IMG/VR virus record: IMGVR_UViG_2660238215_000005
DNA from: a virus
Lineage: Duplodnaviria > Heunggongvirae > Uroviricota > Caudoviricetes
Direction: 5' to 3' (one strand)
DNA length: 14,235 nt
Positions 879-14,235 of this stretch are shown one piece after another; positions within the stretch are counted from its first letter, which is position 1, and every line of letters begins with the position of its first letter. The translations under genes and the position numbers were made by a program. The notes beneath the pieces are model-generated. The model saw nothing but the letters and a program-made list of their open reading frames with translations. It was not told the origin of the DNA and ran no database searches.

Positions 879-2000
879 ATGGAGGGGCCAGCTGCGGCGT
901 TTCAGACCTGGGAACAACTGATTTTTAAACTGCTGGCGGCAGAAGAAGAGTATGAGCGAACCGGCAGTGAAGAGACTCTGAAAGCGGTGGTGAACACCGA
1001 TATCGGACGACCCTATCTGCCCCGTTCAGCCACGGAACAGCGTAAAAGTGAACTGCTTGAACAGCGTGCCGAGCCGTTTCCCCGGCGATCTGTGCCGGAT
1101 GGTGTGCGTTTTATTGAGGCAACGGTTGACGTACAGGGCGGTAAAAATCGCCGTTTTGTTGTGCAGATCACCGGATACGGAGAGCAGGGGGAACGCTGGA
1201 TTGTTGATCGCTACAACATCCGGCATTCACTGCGCTGCAGTCCCAACGGTGAAAGTCTGCCGGTTGATCCGGCGGCATATCCGGAGGACTGGGATTTGTT
1301 GCTGACGGATGTGTTCCATAAAACATGGCCGCTGGCTTCTGATCCGGATGTGCGCATGCGTCTGATGGCCATGGCGGTGGATACGGGAGGGGAAGCCGGG
1401 GTGACAGATAACGCCTATCGTTTCTGGCGTCGTTGCCGGAGTGACGGACTGGGCAACAGGGTGTTTCTGTTCAAGGGGGATGGACTTCGCCGTGACAGGC
1501 TGATTAACCGAACCTTCCCGGATAATACCGGCAGAAGTGCCCGCCGTGCCAGAGCCAGTGGCGATGTCGCGCTGTGGCTGGTTCAGACGGATGCGTTTAA
1601 GGATCGTGTAAATAATGCCCTGTGGCGTGACACACCAGGGCCGAACTATATCCACTTTCCCGACTGGCTGGGGCGGTGGTTTTACGATGAGCTGACCTAT
1701 GAAGAGCGCGGCAGTGACGGAAAATGGCGAAAACCGGGCAGGGGCGCTAACGAAGCGTTTGACCTGCTGGTTTATGCAGATGCGCTTGCCGTTCTGCATG
1801 GTTACGAAAAGATCCGCTGGCCCTCCGCACCGGACTGGGCACAGCGGGAAACGTGGCTCGTCTTCCCGCAGGAGCGTTCTGGTGAAACGGTATCCCCGGA
1901 ACTGACGGCCGGGGCAGAAAAACGCCGTCGCCGGAAGAAAAAACTGCGGACGGAGCGTGCGGAAGATAATCCATGGATAACATCAGGAGGCTGGTTGTGA
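879..2000 (+). CDS. terminase large subunit (lambda gpA-like), C-terminal nuclease half only; probable 5'-truncated remnant or pseudogene
   Basis: The 373-aa product aligns, from memory, with roughly residues 330-640 of lambda gpA (for example FQTWEQLIF against TTWVQIVKD, RWIVDRYNI against SWLIDRQII, NEAFDLLVYADALAVL against NEALDCFVYALAAL). Similarity begins at the ATG; the N-terminal ATPase half (about 330 aa) is absent and the upstream DNA is AT-rich and unrelated. Poor Shine-Dalgarno sequence. Confidence 0.75.
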   Translation: MEGPAAAFQTWEQLIFKLLAAEEEYERTGSEETLKAVVNTDIGRPYLPRSATEQRKSELLEQRAEPFPRRSVPDGVRFIEATVDVQGGKNRRFVVQITGYGEQGERWIVDRYNIRHSLRCSPNGESLPVDPAAYPEDWDLLLTDVFHKTWPLASDPDVRMRLMAMAVDTGGEAGVTDNAYRFWRRCRSDGLGNRVFLFKGDGLRRDRLINRTFPDNTGRSARRARASGDVALWLVQTDAFKDRVNNALWRDTPGPNYIHFPDWLGRWFYDELTYEERGSDGKWRKPGRGANEAFDLLVYADALAVLHGYEKIRWPSAPDWAQRETWLVFPQERSGETVSPELTAGAEKRRRRKKKLRTERAEDNPWITSGGWL

Positions 2001-2209: not shown

Positions 2210-3711
2210 TGGCAATTATTGATGATGTGATCGGCGTGTTTTCCCCTAGGTGGAAAGCAGCCAGACTGCGTTCAAGGGCGTTAATCATGGCCTATGAGGC
2301 GGTGAAACCGACCCGGACACATAAAGCCCGGCGGGAAAATCGCTCTGCTGATCAGCTCAGTAAATACGGTGCGGTTTCCCTGCGGGAGCAGGCCCGTTTT
2401 CTGGATATCAATCATGACCTGGTGATTGGTGTGTTTGACAAGCTGGAAGAGCGGGTGATTGGTGCCAGGGGAATTATTGTGGAGCCTCAGCCATTACGAA
2501 AAAACGGGGAAATGGCGGCTGAGCTGGCTGCGGATATCCGCCGTTTGTGGGCTGAATGGTCCGTGAGTCCGGATGTGACAGGGCAGTATACCCGTCCTGT
2601 GCTTGAACGTTTACTGCTGCGGACCTGGCTGCGGGATGGTGAAGTGTTTGCGCAGATGGTCAGTGGTGCGGGAAACGGTCTGGAACGGACGGCGGGAGTG
2701 CCATTCTGGCTTGAGGCGATGGAGCCGGATTTTGTTCCCATGCGCACTGATGAATCCGCCGGACTGAATCAGGGGGTTTTTCTTGATGAGTGGGGAAGAC
2801 CGAAAAAATATCTGGTTTATAAAAATTATCCGGTCAGCGGCCGGCAGAGTGATACGAAAGAAATCGCTGCCGGAAAAATGATCCACCTGAAGTTCACTCG
2901 TCGTCTGCACCAGACGCGAGGCTCATCCATGTTATCGGGGGTGCTGATGCGGATCAGTGCCCTTAAGGAGTATGAGGATGCGGAACTGACAGCGGCGCGT
3001 ATTGCTGCGGCGCTGGGACTGTATATCCGTAAAGGTGACGGACAGGACTATGAAGATCCGGGGAGCAAAGAGACCGAGCGGGAAGTCCATATCACCCCGG
3101 GTATTATTTATGACGATTTGCGCAAGGGCGAGGATATCGGCATGGTCAAATCTGACCGTCCCAATCCCAACCTTGAAACTTTCCGCAACGGCCAGTTGCG
3201 TGCAGTGGCAGCAGGCAGTCGTCTGAGTTTTTCCAGTGCGGCGCGTAACTATAACGGCACCTACAGCGCCCAGCGGCAGGAGCTGGTCGAGTCCACGGAT
3301 GGTTACCTGATCCTGCAGGACTGTTTTATTGGCGCGGTAACCCGCCCGGTGTACCGGACATGGCTGAATATGGTGGTTGCGGCAGGTCTGCTGAAAATTC
3401 CGGCGGATGTGGAGATGAAAACGCTATATAACGCGACGTATTCCGGTCCGGTGATGCCGTGGATCGACCCGGTTAAGGAAGCTGAAGCCTGGAGAATTCA
3501 GATCCGGGGTGGTGCAGCGACAGAATCTGACTGGGTGCGTGCCGGTGGGCGCAATCCGGATGAGGTCAAACGTCGCCGCAAGGCTGAAATTGATGAAAAC
3601 AGCAGACTGGGGCTGGTCTTTGATACTGACCCCGTCAACGACAAAGGAGGCAACAGTGCCGGAACTGAACGACAGTATCAGCGCGACACCGAAAGCCAGC
3701 ATGAAGAATAA
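2209..3711 (+). CDS. portal protein (lambda gpB-position, 500 aa)
   Basis: 500-aa ORF immediately after W with a TAATG stop/start overlap, in the syntenic portal position of a lambda-type head module. Confidence 0.8.
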   Translation: MAIIDDVIGVFSPRWKAARLRSRALIMAYEAVKPTRTHKARRENRSADQLSKYGAVSLREQARFLDINHDLVIGVFDKLEERVIGARGIIVEPQPLRKNGEMAAELAADIRRLWAEWSVSPDVTGQYTRPVLERLLLRTWLRDGEVFAQMVSGAGNGLERTAGVPFWLEAMEPDFVPMRTDESAGLNQGVFLDEWGRPKKYLVYKNYPVSGRQSDTKEIAAGKMIHLKFTRRLHQTRGSSMLSGVLMRISALKEYEDAELTAARIAAALGLYIRKGDGQDYEDPGSKETEREVHITPGIIYDDLRKGEDIGMVKSDRPNPNLETFRNGQLRAVAAGSRLSFSSAARNYNGTYSAQRQELVESTDGYLILQDCFIGAVTRPVYRTWLNMVVAAGLLKIPADVEMKTLYNATYSGPVMPWIDPVKEAEAWRIQIRGGAATESDWVRAGGRNPDEVKRRRKAEIDENSRLGLVFDTDPVNDKGGNSAGTERQYQRDTESQHEE

Positions 3712-5680
3712 ATCCTGGTTCAGGATGCAGGCTGGGGGGCCGGGTGACGCGGATATTTATATTTATGACGAGATTGGTTTCTGGGGAGTTACCGCGAAGC
3801 AGTTTGTCAGCGAACTGAATGCACTGGGTGATATCACCCACATTAATCTCCATATCAATTCACCGGGTGGCGATGTCTTTGAAGGCATCGCCATTTTTAA
3901 TGCCCTGAAAAATCAGGGGGCGACCATTACCGTGTATGTGGATGGCGTTGCCGCCTCGATGGCATCTGTGATTGCGATGGCCGGTGATACGGTCATTATG
4001 CCGGAAAATGCCTTCATGATGATCCATAAGCCATGGGGATTCAGTGGCGGGGATGCTGAGGATATGCGCAGTTATGCCGATTTGCTGGATAAAGTCGAAT
4101 CGGTACTGTTGCCAGCCTATGCGCAGAGAACCGGAAAAACCACCGATGAAATTGCCGCCATGCTGGCGGATGAAACCTGGATGTCCGGTGCCGAATGTCT
4201 GGCACACGGATTTGCTGACCAGGTGACACCCGCTGTTGAGGCAATGGCATGTATTCAGTCAAAACGTACAGAGGAATTTAAAAAGATGCCGGAATCCATC
4301 CGAAACATGATTACTCCGCCACGCAACAGTGCCCCGCGTGATACCACAGTGACAATCCCTGCACCGGCGGTAACAGAACCATCACCGGTACCGGCAGTGT
4401 CTGATGAGGCGACCATTCGCGCCCGCGTTATGGCAGAACAGAAAGCCCGCATGTCAGGCATTAACGATCTGTTTGCCATGTTCGGCGGTCGCTATCAGAC
4501 GCTTCAGGCACAGTGCGTGGCTGATCCTGACTGTTCGCTGGAAATGGCCCGTGAACGACTGCTGAATGAAATGGGCAAGGAGTCCTCGCCGACCAACAAA
4601 AATACACCGGCCCATATTTATGCCGGAAACGGCAATTTTGTGGGGGACGGGATCCGCCAGGCGATGCTGGCCCGTGCCGGATTTGAAAATGTCGAGAAGG
4701 ATAACGCCTATAACGGGATGACCCTGCGTGAATGGGCTCGCATGTCACTGACGGAGCGCGGTATTGGGGTGGCCAGTTATAACCCCATGCAGATGGTCGG
4801 GCTGGCGCTGACGCACAGCACCTCTGATTTTGGCAATATTCTGCTGGATGTGTCGAACAAGGGGCTGATCCAGGGCTGGGAGGAATCAGAAGAAACCTTC
4901 CAGAAGTGGACCCGTAAGGGACGCCTGTCAGACTTCAAAACAGCGTATCGCGTGGGGATGGGCGGTTTTGGTTCTCTGCGCCAGGTTCGTGAGGGGGCGG
5001 AGTATAAATACATCACCACCTCAGATCGCAAGGAGACCATTGCACTGGCCACTTACGGGGAGATTTTCTCCATCACCCGCCAGGCCATTATCAATGATGA
5101 TCTGAATATGCTGGTGGACGTGCCGATGAAGATGGGGCGTGCGGCGAAGGCAACGATTGGTGACCTGGTCTACAAGGTGCTGACGGATAACCCGAAACTG
5201 TCCGACGGTAAGGCGCTGTTCCATGCCGATCACAAAAATATTGCCACCGGGGGGATCTCCGTTTCCGGACTGGATGCGGCCCGTCAGATGATGCGCCTGC
5301 AGAAAGAAGGCGATCGTGCCCTGAATATCCGTCCGGCCTTTATGCTGGTACCGGTGGCACTGGAGACGGTGGCGAACCAGACCATCAAATCGGCCAGTGT
5401 GAAAGGGGCGGATGCAAACGCCGGTGTCATTAACCCTATCCAGAACTTTGCTGAGGTGATTGCAGAAGCGCGTCTTGATGCGGCAGACCCGAAAACCTGG
5501 TATCTGGCGGCGGCACAGGGCACTGACACCATTGAAGTGGCCTGGCTGGATGGTGTGGACACGCCATACATTGATCAGCAGGAAGGTTTCACCACTGACG
5601 GCATTGCCACAAAAATCCGTATTGATGCCGGAGTGGCACCACTTGACTGGCGCGGGCTGGTGCGTTCGTCGGTGGCCTGA
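3656..5680 (+). CDS. prohead protease (ClpP/S49-like) - scaffold-like linker - major capsid protein fusion
   Basis: Likely GTG start at 3656 with AAAGGAGG at 5-nt spacing (alternative ATG at 3701; the six-frame ORF opens at 3509). The N-terminal domain carries ClpP-type motifs INSPGG, AASMAS (catalytic Ser) and MMIHKPW (catalytic His). It is followed by a Pro/Ala-rich linker and a roughly 300-aa C-terminal domain that is the only candidate major capsid protein in the module. Confidence 0.8.
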   Translation: MPELNDSISATPKASMKNKSWFRMQAGGPGDADIYIYDEIGFWGVTAKQFVSELNALGDITHINLHINSPGGDVFEGIAIFNALKNQGATITVYVDGVAASMASVIAMAGDTVIMPENAFMMIHKPWGFSGGDAEDMRSYADLLDKVESVLLPAYAQRTGKTTDEIAAMLADETWMSGAECLAHGFADQVTPAVEAMACIQSKRTEEFKKMPESIRNMITPPRNSAPRDTTVTIPAPAVTEPSPVPAVSDEATIRARVMAEQKARMSGINDLFAMFGGRYQTLQAQCVADPDCSLEMARERLLNEMGKESSPTNKNTPAHIYAGNGNFVGDGIRQAMLARAGFENVEKDNAYNGMTLREWARMSLTERGIGVASYNPMQMVGLALTHSTSDFGNILLDVSNKGLIQGWEESEETFQKWTRKGRLSDFKTAYRVGMGGFGSLRQVREGAEYKYITTSDRKETIALATYGEIFSITRQAIINDDLNMLVDVPMKMGRAAKATIGDLVYKVLTDNPKLSDGKALFHADHKNIATGGISVSGLDAARQMMRLQKEGDRALNIRPAFMLVPVALETVANQTIKSASVKGADANAGVINPIQNFAEVIAEARLDAADPKTWYLAAAQGTDTIEVAWLDGVDTPYIDQQEGFTTDGIATKIRIDAGVAPLDWRGLVRSSVA

Positions 5681-12653: not shown

Positions 12654-13397
12654 ATGACAGAGACAGAATCAGCGATTCTGGCGCATGCCCGGCGGTGTGC
12701 GCCTGCGGAGTCTTGCGGCTTCGTGATAAGCACGCCGGAGGGTGACCGGTACCAGCCGTGCGTGAATATCTCTGCAGAGCCTGAGGCATATTTTCGTATT
12801 GCACCGGAAGACTGGCTGCGGGCAGAGATGCAGGGGGAGATTGTGGCACTGGTCCACAGCCATCCCGGTGGCCTGCCCTGGCTGAGCGAGGCCGACCGGC
12901 GGCTGCAGATAAAAAGTGCACTGTCCTGGTGGCTGGTCTGCCGGGGTGACATTCACAAATTCCGCTGTGTGCCACATCTGACAGGACGGCGCTTTGAGCA
13001 CGGGGTGACGGACTGTTACACGCTGTTCCGGGATGCTTATCATCTGGCGGGGACTGAAATGCCGGATTTTCATCGCGAGGATGACTGGTGGCGCAACGGT
13101 CAGAACCTGTACCTGGACAATATGGCGGCGACTGGTTTTTACCGGATTTCCCTGCCTTCCGCACAGCCTGGCGATATCCTGCTGTGCTGCTTTGGCGCAT
13201 CGGTGGCCAATCATGCCGCCATATACTGCGGCAACGGTGAACTGCTTCACCATATACCTGAACAACTGAGTAAACGGGAGAGGTATTCTGAAAAATGGCA
13301 ACGACGAACGCATTCTGTCTGGCGTCACCGCCACTGGTCCGCATCTGCCTTCACGGGGATTTACAACGATTTGGTCGCCGCCTCAGCCTGTATGTGA
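12654..13397 (+). CDS. tail tip assembly protein (lambda gpK-like; JAMM/MPN plus NlpC/P60-like motifs)
   Basis: ATG at 12654 directly after the L stop (the six-frame ORF opens further upstream at 12399 with no support). JAMM motif HSHPGG-x5-S-x2-D plus a Cys/His pattern consistent with an NlpC/P60 domain. The 3' end overlaps the I gene by 103 bp, as in lambda. Confidence 0.85.
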   Translation: MTETESAILAHARRCAPAESCGFVISTPEGDRYQPCVNISAEPEAYFRIAPEDWLRAEMQGEIVALVHSHPGGLPWLSEADRRLQIKSALSWWLVCRGDIHKFRCVPHLTGRRFEHGVTDCYTLFRDAYHLAGTEMPDFHREDDWWRNGQNLYLDNMAATGFYRISLPSAQPGDILLCCFGASVANHAAIYCGNGELLHHIPEQLSKRERYSEKWQRRTHSVWRHRHWSASAFTGIYNDLVAASACM

Positions 13398-13978
13398 ACA
13401 CGGCAGCGGAGGCCATCCGTGCCCTGTCGCTGCAGGTGCCAGGATTCCGCGGTCAGATGAACGAAGGCTGGTACCAGATACGTATTGCCGGTGAGGATAC
13501 CGCGCCGGAGGCGGTGTATGCCCGTCTTCATGAGCCACTGAGCGGGAGGGCCGTGATTCATATTGTACCGCGGCTGGCAGGGGCCGGGGGAAATGGTGTT
13601 TTTCAGGTGGTGCTGGGGGCAGCAGCCATCGTGGGCTCTTTCTTCACCGCCGGCGCAACGATGGCGTTGTGGGGCGCAGCCCTGAGTGCCGGAGCGCTGA
13701 CTGCCACCACGATGCTGTTCTCACTGGGGGCCAGCATGATACTGGGCGGTGTGGCCCAGATGCTGGCCCCGAAGGCAAAAACACCGGATTACCGCGCAAC
13801 GGATAACGGTAAACAGAACACGTATTTTTCGTCACTGGACAATATGATTGCCCAGGGTAACCCGATGCCGGTGCCTTACGGGGAAATGCTGGTTGGCTCC
13901 CGGCGAATCTCCCAGGACATCAGTACCCGTGATGAAGGCGGTGGCGGAAAGGTCGTGGTTATCGGGCGGCAGGGGTAA
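13295..13978 (+). CDS. tail assembly protein (lambda gpI-like)
   Basis: 227 aa; RICL.GDLQRFGRR at the N-terminus, a hydrophobic Gly/Ala-rich centre and C-terminal KQNTYFSSLDNM...YGEM.VGSR match lambda I. Confidence 0.85.
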   Translation: MATTNAFCLASPPLVRICLHGDLQRFGRRLSLYVNTAAEAIRALSLQVPGFRGQMNEGWYQIRIAGEDTAPEAVYARLHEPLSGRAVIHIVPRLAGAGGNGVFQVVLGAAAIVGSFFTAGATMALWGAALSAGALTATTMLFSLGASMILGGVAQMLAPKAKTPDYRATDNGKQNTYFSSLDNMIAQGNPMPVPYGEMLVGSRRISQDISTRDEGGGGKVVVIGRQG

Positions 13979-13991
13979 AGCATAAAAAAAT

Positions 13992-14015
13992 CCCGCAGTG
14001 TATGGAGGCTGCGGG
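13992..14015 (-). terminator. hairpin CCCGCAG-N10-CTGCGGG with an adjacent A7/T7 run; terminator-like for a minus-strand transcript
   Basis: 7-bp stem and 10-nt loop; the A7 run at 13984-13990 becomes a U-tract after the hairpin on the minus strand. No convincing minus-strand gene is visible inside the window. Confidence 0.35.
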
Positions 14016-14149
14016 AACAGAAAATGAAGATTAACCACAGGGAGTTTTGTTTTTATTGGCCCGAAAAAACTGTAACGCCCGGGAATGATATCTGCCACGG
14101 GGGCGTACAGAAAATGTGAAGAAATTCAGAAATTTTATTCCGTCATGAC

Positions 14150-14175
14150 ACAGGCACCCTCCGGGGTGCCTGTTT
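14150..14175 (+). terminator. hairpin ACAGGCACCC-TCCG-GGGTGCCTGT followed by TT; candidate intrinsic terminator for the tail operon
   Basis: 10-bp GC-rich stem with a 4-nt loop; the downstream U-tract is short (UGUUUG), so efficiency is uncertain. Confidence 0.35.
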
Positions 14176-14235
14176 GAACCGCCCCGGGTTTCCTGGAGAG
14201 TATTTTATCTGTGAACTCAGGCTGCCAGATCATTA

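What the first reader, a model, noticed from the sequence alone, without database searches (positions are those of the whole stretch)
13979..14235. No J-like tail-tip gene after I; hairpin-flanked spacer with a possible 31-aa mini-ORF
In lambda the central tail fibre gene J follows I closely. Here gpI ends at 13978 and is followed by an A7 run with a minus-sense terminator-like hairpin (13992-14015), a possible 31-aa ORF (14024-14119, MKINHREFCFYWPEKTVTPGNDICHGGVQKM, weak ribosome-binding site), a 10-bp-stem hairpin (14150-14173) and then GGAGAG plus GTG at 14211, which may start the next gene. This looks like a module boundary, a moron insertion site, or a second deletion junction.
Basis: seen in the sequence. 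Interest (0 to 1): 0.45.

Follow-up and report, generated by a model that had tools for sequence, protein, structure and literature searches.

The report
Known prophage sRNA gene, then IS629
The stretch after tail gene I is the normal I–J spacer of Shiga-toxin-type lambdoid prophages: it carries a known Hfq-binding small-RNA gene (PasB / EcOnc22-24 family) on the opposite strand, and the window then runs into an IS629-type insertion sequence about 50 bases before the usual J start, so it is ordinary.

Summary
The hairpins and the 31-codon ORF are at the stated coordinates.

- **Spacer:** 13979-14174 is the conserved I–J spacer of more than 700 E. coli genomes and of functional Stx phages, where J starts about 50 nt after hairpin 2.
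- **Hairpin 1:** with its A7 run, it is the intrinsic terminator of a minus-strand small-RNA gene (about 14078→13984).
  - A covariance model built only from other alleles matches it end to end (73.6 bits, E 1e-12).
  - Its homologues are PasB in EPEC E2348/69 (83 nt, Hfq-dependent) and EcOnc22/23/24 in EHEC Sakai (~85 nt, Hfq-dependent). The published coordinates and Northern probes of both map to this position.
- **Mini-ORF:** it is the complement of the sRNA seed region. Its ATG is lost in 16 of 43 unique spacers and its frame is not kept.
- **Hairpin 2:** a conserved sense-strand terminator-like hairpin before the J leader.
- **Window end:** homology breaks at 14174/14175. Bases 14175-14235 are the end of a 1310-bp IS629/IS1203 element. 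The "GGAGAG + GTG" lies inside it.
- **Source contig:** the same junction occurs in three draft assemblies whose contigs end inside the IS, so whether J survives beyond it is unknown.

The window copy is a roughly 75%-identical, undescribed allele of a known sRNA family. Interest is low.

The parts
13394..13978 (+). Tail assembly gene I (context). It is 194 aa as annotated in relatives. The 227-aa ORF from 13295 overlaps K.
   Evidence: Pfam Lambda_tail_I. Annotated as tail assembly protein in relatives.
13984..14078 (-). PasB / EcOnc22-24-family small-RNA gene. The predicted primary transcript is about 95 nt. The part equivalent to the published 83-nt PasB is 13984-14066.
   Evidence: A covariance model built without window-type alleles hits 14078→13984 end to end (73.6 bits, E 1e-12) and is the only hit in the window. 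It aligns to PasB and to the Sp15 sRNA. The 5' end is inferred from the conserved -10 plus 7 nt.
13984..14016 (-). Intrinsic terminator of the sRNA. The 3' end lies 6 nt after the I stop codon.
   Evidence: Fold -13.9 kcal/mol, z -4.15. The stem CCCGCAG/CUGCGGG is the same in 39 of 40 distinct sequences while the loops vary. The 3' end has the same offset from the I stop as published PasB.
14026..14046 (-). Single-stranded conserved core of the sRNA and likely seed. It comprises UUAAUCUUC (14034→14026) and the anti-Shine-Dalgarno-like AACUCCCU (14046→14039).
   Evidence: These are the most conserved unpaired positions among 39 unique alleles. Zhu et al. place the PasB seed just upstream of the terminator.
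14085..14090 (-). Candidate -10 hexamer of the sRNA promoter. It reads TATCAT here and TATAAT, AATAAT or GATAAT in other alleles.
   Evidence: It sits at a fixed 6 nt from the conserved 5' GCGUUA in 26 unique modules. E2348/69 has TTCACA-16-TATAAT, 11 of 12 matches. The window allele has no good -35, and the scan finds no consensus promoter.
14115..14130 (.). Invariant motif TGTGAAGAAATTCAGA (CRP-like TGTGA-N6-TCAGA) upstream of the sRNA promoter. Its function is not established.
   Evidence: It is invariant in 33 unique spacers. It lies 24 nt from the -10 in 24 of 26 unique modules despite 18 different spacer sequences. It is repeated with each tandem sRNA copy in L015.
14150..14173 (+). Hairpin 2. 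In intact relatives it is a sense-strand terminator-like hairpin followed by (C/T)GTTTTT and then the J leader. In the window the T-tract is replaced by the IS.
   Evidence: Fold -21.4 kcal/mol, z -4.5. It is listed as a + strand terminator in L001 and E2348/69. It is 98% paired in 11 unique variants, with one C-G↔U-A compensatory pair.
14175..14235 (-). Outer 61 nt of an IS629/IS1203-type (IS3 family) insertion sequence. It is the right end, with the transposase on the minus strand.
   Evidence: Homology to intact spacers stops at 14174. The 66-nt end occurs at 23,558 places in 3,970 E. coli genomes under 'IS3 family transposase'. It matches 59 of 61 nt at the end of a 1310-bp element that has inverted ends and a 3-bp duplication in L002. 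Copies 96% identical are annotated IS1203.
14024..14119 (+). It is the complement of the sRNA body and promoter.
   Evidence: The start codon is ACG or ACA in 16 of 43 unique spacers. ORF length ranges from 12 to over 100 codons and the frame is not kept beyond about 10 codons.

Best explanation
Bases 13979-14174 are the ordinary I–J intergenic spacer of Stx-phage-type lambdoid prophages of E. coli.

**The sRNA gene.** The spacer carries a self-contained small-RNA gene on the strand opposite to the late operon. It is an allele of the family known as PasB in EPEC E2348/69 and as EcOnc22/23/24 in EHEC Sakai. Transcription is inferred to start near 14078 from a promoter whose -10 is TATCAT (14090→14085). 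An invariant upstream motif lies at 14115-14130. The transcript runs leftward and ends at hairpin 1 plus U7, 6 nt after the I stop.

**How it works (by homology).** The product is an Hfq-dependent, trans-acting base-pairing sRNA of about 83-95 nt, made in the lysogen. It has a single-stranded seed (UUAAUCUUC, with an anti-SD-like AACUCCCU) just 5' of the terminator. Its targets are unknown.

**Hairpin 2.** This is a separate, sense-strand terminator-like hairpin in front of the J leader. Lambda itself has an analogous hairpin there. It is presumably read through by Q-modified polymerase during lytic growth. This step is inferred.

**The IS.** An IS629/IS1203 element has inserted immediately after hairpin 2. 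It replaces the hairpin's T-tract, about 50 nt upstream of where J starts in intact relatives. The window ends 61 nt into the IS, and the source contig ends 124 nt into it.

**The mini-ORF.** It is a by-product of the sRNA sequence read on the wrong strand.
For: **Position**
- In intact relatives J follows I after a 246-nt spacer. That spacer is 99.6% identical to the window up to 14173.
- The spacer is present in 147 phage records, including inducible Stx phages.

**Family membership**
- PasB is published at NC_011601.1 1466343→1466261, minus strand, 83 nt. This lies between I (ends 1466255) and J (starts 1466496).
- The PasB Northern probe is the hairpin-1 sequence of that allele.
- The EcOnc22/23/24 Hfq-CRAC peaks fall in the I–J spacers of Sp15, Sp14 and Sp11. 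Their Northern probe has a 23-nt exact target just 5' of hairpin 1 on the antisense strand.
- Both RNAs are about 83-85 nt and are destabilised without Hfq.
- Model R1, built without window-type alleles, matches window 14078→13984 at 73.6 bits, E 1e-12.
- 79 of 80 IMG/VR loci with gpI at least 85% identical have such a hit 5-12 nt after the I stop, always antisense. No searched locus with a lambda-type gpI or with gpI of at most 63% identity has one.

**Structure**
- Hairpin z-scores are -4.15 and -4.5. Stems are conserved while loops vary.
- The promoter geometry is conserved.

**IS**.

**Source**: the window is 100% identical over 6842 nt to GCA_023722065.1 contig JAKYOS010000055.1. That contig carries the same junction and ends inside the IS.
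Against: - No expression data exist for this particular allele. It is only 74.7% identical to PasB and 71.4% to the Sp15 EcOnc22 allele.
- Its promoter has a poor -35 and is not picked up by the consensus scan.
- The predicted primary transcript (about 95 nt) is longer than the published 83-85 nt. Either the 5' end is processed or my start site is off by about 12 nt.
- Rfam has no model for this family, so there is no curated threshold to pass.
- Covariation support for the hairpins is weak, because the stems hardly vary. Hairpin 2 has one compensatory pair, and 51 of 500 shuffles reach the observed score.
- The function of hairpin 2 and of the highly conserved block 14100-14150 is inferred, not shown.
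Confidence: 0.85

Rival explanations
1. The spacer encodes a 31-aa micro-protein (14024-14119, + strand) expressed from the late operon or from its own weak ribosome-binding site.
For: The ORF exists. An AGGGAG-like purine run lies nearby. The first roughly 9 codons, (M/T)KI(N/S)x(K/R)EL, look conserved.
Against: - The start codon is ACG or ACA in 16 of 43 unique spacers.
- Indels change the frame after about 10 codons, and length ranges from 12 to over 100 codons.
- The conserved 'N-terminus' coincides with the conserved seed of the antisense sRNA.
- Only two phage records annotate any ORF here, and they annotate different ones.
Confidence: 0.03
2. The IS marks an IS-mediated deletion, so J and the tail-fibre genes are gone from this prophage. 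In that sense 13979-14235 borders a second deletion junction.
For: - The prophage is already defective. Its large terminase retains only the nuclease domain.
- IS629 sits mostly in prophages and is linked to IS-mediated deletions in O157.
- The source contig ends inside the IS, so nothing shows that J follows.
Against: - The left flank is perfectly colinear with intact spacers up to the last base before the IS, as for a simple insertion.
- Another prophage (L002) has the same IS type simply inserted inside J, with a 3-bp duplication and the rest of J following.
- Contigs ending in an IS are the normal result of short-read assembly.
Confidence: 0.2
3. Not exclusive of the main explanation: the most conserved block (14100-14174, including hairpin 2 and, in relatives, its T-tract) is itself a product. 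It would be a short sense-strand RNA of about 60-80 nt divergent from the PasB-like gene, or an attenuator that tunes J expression.
For: - The block is more conserved than the sRNA body.
- It folds well (-27.5 kcal/mol, z -3.5) and ends in a canonical terminator in relatives.
- Hairpin 2 shows a compensatory C-G↔U-A change.
- Lambda also has a sense hairpin before J.
Against: - No sense-strand promoter was found.
- No sense-strand Hfq-CRAC peak or RIL-seq entry is reported for this spacer in the texts held.
- The TGTGA-N6-TCAGA part is duplicated together with each sRNA copy, while hairpin 2 occurs only once. This fits 'promoter element plus separate terminator' better than one RNA.
Confidence: 0.15
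4. The two hairpins are only generic transcription terminators or a recombination module boundary, with no gene between them.
For: Mosaic boundaries in lambdoid phages often coincide with intergenic hairpins. The alleles of the spacer are reassorted relative to I and J.
Against: - Two independent laboratories detected an Hfq-bound RNA of the expected size from this exact position, with probes that map here.
- A promoter-like -10 is conserved at a fixed distance.
- The model hits are always in the same orientation and at the same offset.
Confidence: 0.03

Closest known systems
PasB sRNA of EPEC O127:H6 E2348/69 (Pearl Mizrahi et al. 2021, PMC8550237; Zhu, Shabalina & Storz 2026, bioRxiv 10.64898/2026.05.13.724894)
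   Same: - Same slot: the I–J spacer, antisense to the late operon, with the 3' end 6 nt after the I stop.
- Identical terminator stem and U-tract.
- Shared UUAAUCUUC-type core upstream of the terminator.
- Same 5' GCGUUA..GUUUUUU, and the same -10 and upstream-motif geometry.
   Different: - Only 74.7% identical over the 83-nt RNA.
- Different terminator loop and a different 5' half.
- The anti-SD-like motif is CUCCCU rather than CUCCUU.
- The -35 is much weaker than E2348/69's TTCACA.
- This allele is probably outside the published PasB census, which reports only 'a few nucleotide differences' among PasB variants.
EcOnc22/EcOnc23/EcOnc24 of EHEC O157:H7 Sakai prophages Sp15, Sp14 and Sp11 (Tree et al. 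2014, PMC4104026)
   Same: Same slot, same orientation, same terminator stem and same core. The RNA is about 85 nt on a Northern blot and destabilised in Δhfq. The host background is the same (Stx and other lambdoid prophages of STEC).
   Different: - 71.4% identical.
- The function of EcOnc22-24 is also unknown.
- The papers I could search do not state that EcOnc22-24 and PasB are the same family.
IS629 / IS1203 (IS3 family, 1310 bp)
   Same: The 61 nt at 14175-14235 match the terminal inverted-repeat end (TGAACCGCCCCGG...) in 59 of 61 positions. Such elements are multi-copy and mostly sit in prophages of STEC.
   Different: Only the outer 61 nt are in the window (124 nt in the source contig). 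The transposase genes, the other end and the target duplication cannot be seen.
Phage lambda I–J junction
   Same: The gene order K-I-J is the same. A GC-rich sense hairpin with a U-rich tail lies shortly before the J ribosome-binding site.
   Different: Lambda's spacer is only 60 nt, and the PasB-family model gives no hit in the four lambda-type loci searched. The sRNA cassette is an addition found in the Stx-phage-type lineage.
AgvB/AsxR 'anti-sRNAs' and sodC-type morons of lambdoid prophages
   Same: They are independently transcribed cargo at a fixed slot inside the late region, expressed in the lysogen. Some relatives carry sodC in this same I–J slot.
   Different: AgvB and AsxR sit downstream of PR' near the Q/stx region and are 51-60 nt with a different conserved 3' domain. 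Rfam AgvB and AsxR models do not hit here.

Membership tests
PasB / EcOnc22-24 prophage sRNA family | Located in the I–J intergenic spacer of a lambdoid prophage, antisense to I and J, with the 3' end a few nt after the I stop codon | tested here: met
   Window hit at 14078→13984, and I stops at 13978. PasB ends at 1466261, and I stops at 1466255. The EcOnc22-24 probe target lies in the Sp15, Sp14 and Sp11 I–J spacers.
PasB / EcOnc22-24 prophage sRNA family | Sequence and structure similarity to the family, judged by a model that does not contain the window's own allele type | tested here: met
   Model R1 (20 sequences, window-type alleles excluded) gives 73.6 bits, E 1e-12, over model positions 1-96 of 96, and is the sole hit in 14,235 nt.
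PasB / EcOnc22-24 prophage sRNA family | [quoted passage not shown] | tested here: met
   8-bp stem, -13.9 kcal/mol, z -4.15, followed by U7. The stem is the same in 39 of 40 distinct family sequences.
PasB / EcOnc22-24 prophage sRNA family | [quoted passage not shown] | tested here: met
   UUAAUCUUC at 14034→14026 is unpaired in the predicted fold and conserved across alleles. The seed location follows Zhu et al..
PasB / EcOnc22-24 prophage sRNA family | Own promoter | tested here: inconclusive
   A -10 (TATCAT) lies at the family's fixed position, 6 nt before GCGUUA. However, there is no consensus -35 and no hit in the promoter scan for the window allele. E2348/69 has an 11-of-12 promoter.
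PasB / EcOnc22-24 prophage sRNA family | Expressed as an Hfq-dependent RNA of about 83-85 nt | not testable with these tools
   This is shown only for the E2348/69 and Sakai alleles. No transcript data exist for the window allele.
IS629/IS1203 (IS3 family) insertion sequence | Terminal inverted repeat beginning TGAACCGCCCCGG at the point where homology with uninterrupted spacers ends | tested here: met
   Searches show the break at 14174/14175. 59 of 61 nt are identical to the end of a 1310-bp element with inverted ends.
IS629/IS1203 (IS3 family) insertion sequence | Multi-copy, at unrelated genomic sites | tested here: met
   23,558 places in 3,970 of 5,426 E. coli genomes, on chromosomes and plasmids, next to unrelated genes.
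IS629/IS1203 (IS3 family) insertion sequence | Complete element with orfA/orfB (programmed frameshift), a second inverted end and a 3-bp target duplication | not testable with these tools
   The window holds 61 nt and the source contig 124 nt of the element. These features are seen only in other copies, such as L002.
Small protein gene (the 31-aa mini-ORF) | Start codon and reading frame conserved among homologous loci | tested here: not met
   ATG is replaced by ACG or ACA in 16 of 43 unique spacers, and frame and length are not kept.
Intrinsic terminator (hairpin 2, + strand) | GC-rich stem immediately followed by a T-tract | tested here: not met
   The feature is met in intact relatives, which have CGTTTTT or TGTTTTT. 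In the window the tract is replaced by TTGAACCGCC of the IS, and the scan finds no terminator there.

The most novel reading that the evidence does not exclude
The I–J spacer of Stx-type lambdoid phages may be a dedicated, expandable slot for one family of antisense sRNA genes.

- It holds 1-3 tandem copies.
- Each copy has an invariant CRP-like TGTGA-N6-TCAGA box at a fixed 24 nt from its -10.
- The alleles (PasB, EcOnc22-24, the window type and about 36 more) keep the terminator and a short core but diversify the rest.

The published PasB census would then have seen only one allele class, and the family would be a carbon-source-regulated, rapidly re-targeting phage regulator. Because the sRNA is perfectly complementary to the late mRNA between I and J, it might also act in cis on expression of the host-range protein J.
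Probability: 0.2. Interest if true: 0.45.

Novelty: new member of a known kind. Interest (0 to 1): 0.2.

Why it matters
The main value is for annotation. A region that looks like an odd gap with a possible micro-gene is explained by two known elements: a PasB/EcOnc22-24-family sRNA gene and an IS629/IS1203 end.

Two modest by-products may be useful.
- EcOnc22/23/24 of EHEC and PasB of EPEC are alleles of one family at one fixed locus. The window type is a third common allele class, present in more than 700 complete E. coli genomes. BLAST-based censuses of PasB therefore probably undercount the family in STEC.
- Each copy carries an invariant upstream motif at fixed spacing, which gives a testable handle on regulation.

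The IS insertion separates the late operon from J. It adds to the evidence that this prophage is decaying, alongside its truncated terminase.

Tried and rejected
- **Rfam** (E-value mode, window 13800-14235 and the intact relative): only sub-threshold hits that reflect a generic terminator (anti-hemB 18.5 bits against 49.5 needed). No curated family exists.
- **Exact junction pattern**: absent from complete E. coli genomes, GTDB species representatives and IMG/VR. It was finally found through an exact-protein look-up of gpI in three draft assemblies.
- **Tree et al. coordinates** at first seemed to put EcOnc22 over hairpin 2 near the J start. Calibration with AgvB (Rfam hit in NC_002695.2) showed that the paper's coordinates are offset by about +137 to +146. 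The probe sequence then settled the position.
- **Hairpin 1 as a + strand terminator**: rejected, because no T-tract follows it on that strand.
- **Sigma-54 promoter** at the conserved GTGGC: rejected by inspection, because the GG-N10-GC spacing is not met.
- **CRP class II activation**: the box centre would lie at about -44.5 from the start predicted by the TATAAT-type -10. That is off the canonical -41.5, so it stays only a lead (my calculation).
- **Sense-strand promoter for a hairpin-2 RNA**: none found.
- **A second RIL-seq RNA in the E2348/69 I–J spacer**: none in the held (partly truncated) supplementary tables.
- **The minus-strand 32-aa ORF 14135-14233** crosses the IS junction, so it is a chimera.
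- **Lambda hairpin**: the terminator scan did not list lambda's I–J hairpin. Folding shows it.

Full report
**What is in the sequence.** gpI ends at 13978. It is followed by GCAT, an A7 run (13984-13990), an inverted repeat at 13992-14015, an ATG ORF of 31 codons (14024-14119), and a 10-bp-stem hairpin at 14150-14173. As RNA, hairpin 1 on the minus strand folds at -13.9 kcal/mol (z = -4.15 against dinucleotide shuffles). Hairpin 2 folds at -21.4 kcal/mol (z = -4.5). The physical observation is therefore correct.

**Where the window stops being prophage.**
- A megablast of 13900-14235 against 5,426 complete E. coli genomes gave 738 genomes that match 13900-14173 at up to 99.6% identity under 'tail assembly protein'. 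None continues past 14174.
- The last 66 bases alone occur at 23,558 places in 3,970 genomes, on chromosomes and plasmids, under 'IS3 family transposase' and next to unrelated genes.
- In the intact relative L001, hairpin 2 is followed by CGTTTTTGGGG, a short leader and AGGAGAGGGGGACAGAGTG. That GTG is the start of a 3,477-nt 'phage attachment tail tip protein J', and Lom and tail-fibre genes follow.
- In L002 the same repeat end (TGAACCGCCCCGGGTTTCCTGGAGAG...) begins a 1310-bp element. It has imperfect inverted ends, a frameshifted transposase on the opposite strand and a 3-bp duplication (AAG), and there it is inserted inside J.
- Copies 96% identical are annotated as IS1203. IS1203 is an isoform of IS629, and 62% of IS629 copies in O157 genomes lie in prophages (PMC3271280).
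- The window matches this end at 59 of 61 positions from 14175.
In a full copy that frame closes after 41 codons.

**The source.** An exact-protein look-up of gpI found three draft assemblies (GCA_023722065.1, GCA_023722045.1, GCA_023722085.1) with the same junction. Contig JAKYOS010000055.1 is identical to the window over 6,842 compared bases and ends 63 nt beyond the window, 124 nt into the IS. This is the usual short-read assembly break in a repeat. What lies beyond the IS cannot be seen.

**What the spacer is.** The spacer occurs in 147 phage records, including BP-4795, Stx2 phage 1717, phi330 and PhiR12_4. It is thus a normal part of functional phages. Aligning diverged versions showed four blocks:
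- an invariant A-run and hairpin-1 stem with free-varying loops;
- a conserved AAGATTAA core;
- a conserved AAAAC..TAACGC;
- a nearly invariant block from AAATGTGAAGA to hairpin 2 and its T-tract.

On the minus strand, hairpin 1 followed by U7 is a canonical intrinsic terminator. This suggested a small-RNA gene.

**Literature match: PasB.** Pearl Mizrahi et al. (PMC8550237, Table S6) give PasB as NC_011601.1, minus strand, 1466343→1466261, 83 nt, between E2348C_1436 and _1437, with Northern probe AATCCCGCAGTGATCGCGGAGCT. In that genome I ends at 1466255 and J starts at 1466496. The probe is the hairpin-1 sequence of that allele. PasB is Hfq-dependent and more abundant under the non-activating condition.

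**Literature match: EcOnc22/23/24.** Tree et al. (PMC4104026, Table S2) list these in Sakai prophages Sp15, Sp14 and Sp11 as Hfq-CRAC peaks, with a Northern band of about 85 nt that is destabilised in Δhfq.
- All three coordinates fall in I–J spacers.
- The paper uses an older coordinate version. Calibration on AgvB gives an offset of about +137 to +146. This moves the peaks onto the sRNA body.
- The probe GGGAGAGAACGATGAAGATTAACTGATGAGTTA has a 23-nt exact target (GTTAATCTTCATCGTTCTCTCCC) immediately 5' of hairpin 1, on the strand antisense to I and J, in all three prophages.
- The targets of EcOnc22-24 are unknown.
- The papers I could search do not link PasB with EcOnc22-24.

**Membership test.** I fetched 80 IMG/VR loci and 34 species-representative loci encoding gpI relatives.
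- Thirty-nine unique sRNA-region sequences were found.
- A covariance model built from 20 of them, excluding every window-type allele, hits the window once, at 14078→13984, over the full model (73.6 bits, E 1e-12).
- The same model hits 79 of 80 IMG/VR loci 5-12 nt after the I stop, always antisense.
- L015 and L017 have two or three tandem copies.
- Lambda-type loci (gpI 67% identical) and loci with gpI of at most 63% identity have none.
- The window allele is 74.7% identical to PasB and 71.4% to the Sp15 allele.

**Promoter.** In E2348/69 the scan finds TTCACA-16-TATAAT (11 of 12 matches) on the minus strand. Across 26 unique modules the -10 reads TATAAT, AATAAT, TATCAT or GATAAT. It always lies 6 nt before the conserved GCGTTA.
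- In the window this places the start near 14078 and predicts a primary transcript of about 95 nt.
- That is longer than the published 83-85 nt, so the 5' end is uncertain or processed.
- The window allele has no good -35 and is missed by the consensus scan.
- Upstream, TGTGAAGA-NN-TTCAGA is invariant and sits 24 nt from the -10 in 24 of 26 modules, despite 18 different intervening sequences.
- It is repeated with each tandem copy in L015.
- It resembles a CRP site, but by my calculation it would be centred near -44.5, so I treat it only as a lead.

**The mini-ORF.** The position of its ATG reads ACG or ACA in 16 of 43 unique spacers. ORF length ranges from 12 to over 100 codons and the frame is not kept. 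The apparently conserved first codons are the complement of the sRNA's conserved core. It is not a gene.

**Hairpin 2.** In every uninterrupted spacer it is followed by (C/T)GTTTT(T), and it is listed as a + strand terminator.
- Among 11 unique variants 98% of cells pair, with one C-G↔U-A compensatory pair plus a U·G intermediate. Statistical support is weak because most pairs never vary.
- It occurs once per spacer, at the J-proximal end, even when the sRNA module is repeated.
- Lambda's own 60-nt I–J spacer has an analogous sense hairpin with a U-rich tail.
- I therefore read it as a feature of the late operon in front of J, overridden by Q antitermination (inferred), and not as part of the sRNA gene.
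- In the window the IS has replaced its T-tract.

**Verdict.** The explanation is ordinary: a known prophage sRNA family in its usual slot, plus the end of a common IS element. 'Moron site' is close to the truth, since relatives also carry sodC there. The mini-ORF, the next-gene start and a deletion junction within 13979-14174 are not supported. Whether J survives beyond the IS is open. The only new points are that this is an undescribed allele class, and that PasB and EcOnc22-24 are one family with a conserved promoter architecture.

Noticed in passing
window 879-2000 (and 1-2300): The large terminase ORF (373 aa) contains only the GpA nuclease domain. The first 2.3 kb match intact Stx phages in two pieces covering 70% of the query. 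The ATPase part appears to be lost, so the prophage is probably defective.
   Followed up: partly
L018 1973-2500 (also L027, L035, L037, L043 and others): In a subset of related prophages the I–J spacer also holds a Cu/Zn superoxide dismutase gene (sodC, Pfam Sod_Cu, E 4e-32). It lies on the minus strand, right after the PasB-like gene. The slot therefore accepts protein-coding morons too.
   Followed up: partly
L015 1788-2350; L017 1787-2352: Two or three tandem PasB-like modules lie in one I–J spacer. Each has its own minus-sense terminator, -10 and TGTGAAGAnnTTCAGA box. The third copy has a different terminator stem (CUCCCGU/ACGGGAG) that still pairs.
   Followed up: partly
window 14100-14150: The block between the sRNA promoter and hairpin 2 is more conserved than the sRNA body. 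It contains several short palindromes (TGAAnnnnTTCA, GTCATGAC). Its role is unexplained.
   Followed up: partly
L093-L107 (genome-contig hits): Loci with an identical lambda-type gpI (67% to the query) occur in assemblies labelled Neobacillus, Pseudomonas, Shewanella, Chromatium, Paenibacillus and others. Several sit on contigs of about 48.5 kb, and several are at low coverage. They look like phage lambda control-DNA contamination.
   Followed up: no
L092 (NZ_JBHTEB010000006.1, labelled Streptomyces flavalbus): A 3.4-kb contig carries an E. coli-type gpI (89% identical) and a PasB-family hit (106 bits). This is almost certainly contamination of that assembly.
   Followed up: no
L021, J leader (alignment): The heptamer CATCAGA in the J leader is expanded to extra tandem copies in one prophage. 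It is a small variable repeat just upstream of the J ribosome-binding site.
   Followed up: no
L126 (GCA_027941635.1 JAQIZC010000059.1) 2693-4242: A Nu1-like small terminase gene is followed directly by gpI and J. This prophage remnant has lost everything from the large terminase to K.
   Followed up: no
NC_002695.2 versus Tree et al. 2014 Table S2: The published EcOnc coordinates are offset by about +137 to +146 nt from the current Sakai RefSeq record at AgvB1. Mapped naively, they land beside the real sRNAs.
   Followed up: yes
window 3509-5680: A single 723-aa ORF combines a ClpP-type protease domain and a capsid domain. It overlaps the end of the portal gene by about 200 nt. This may be typical for this phage group, but I did not examine it further.
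   Followed up: no
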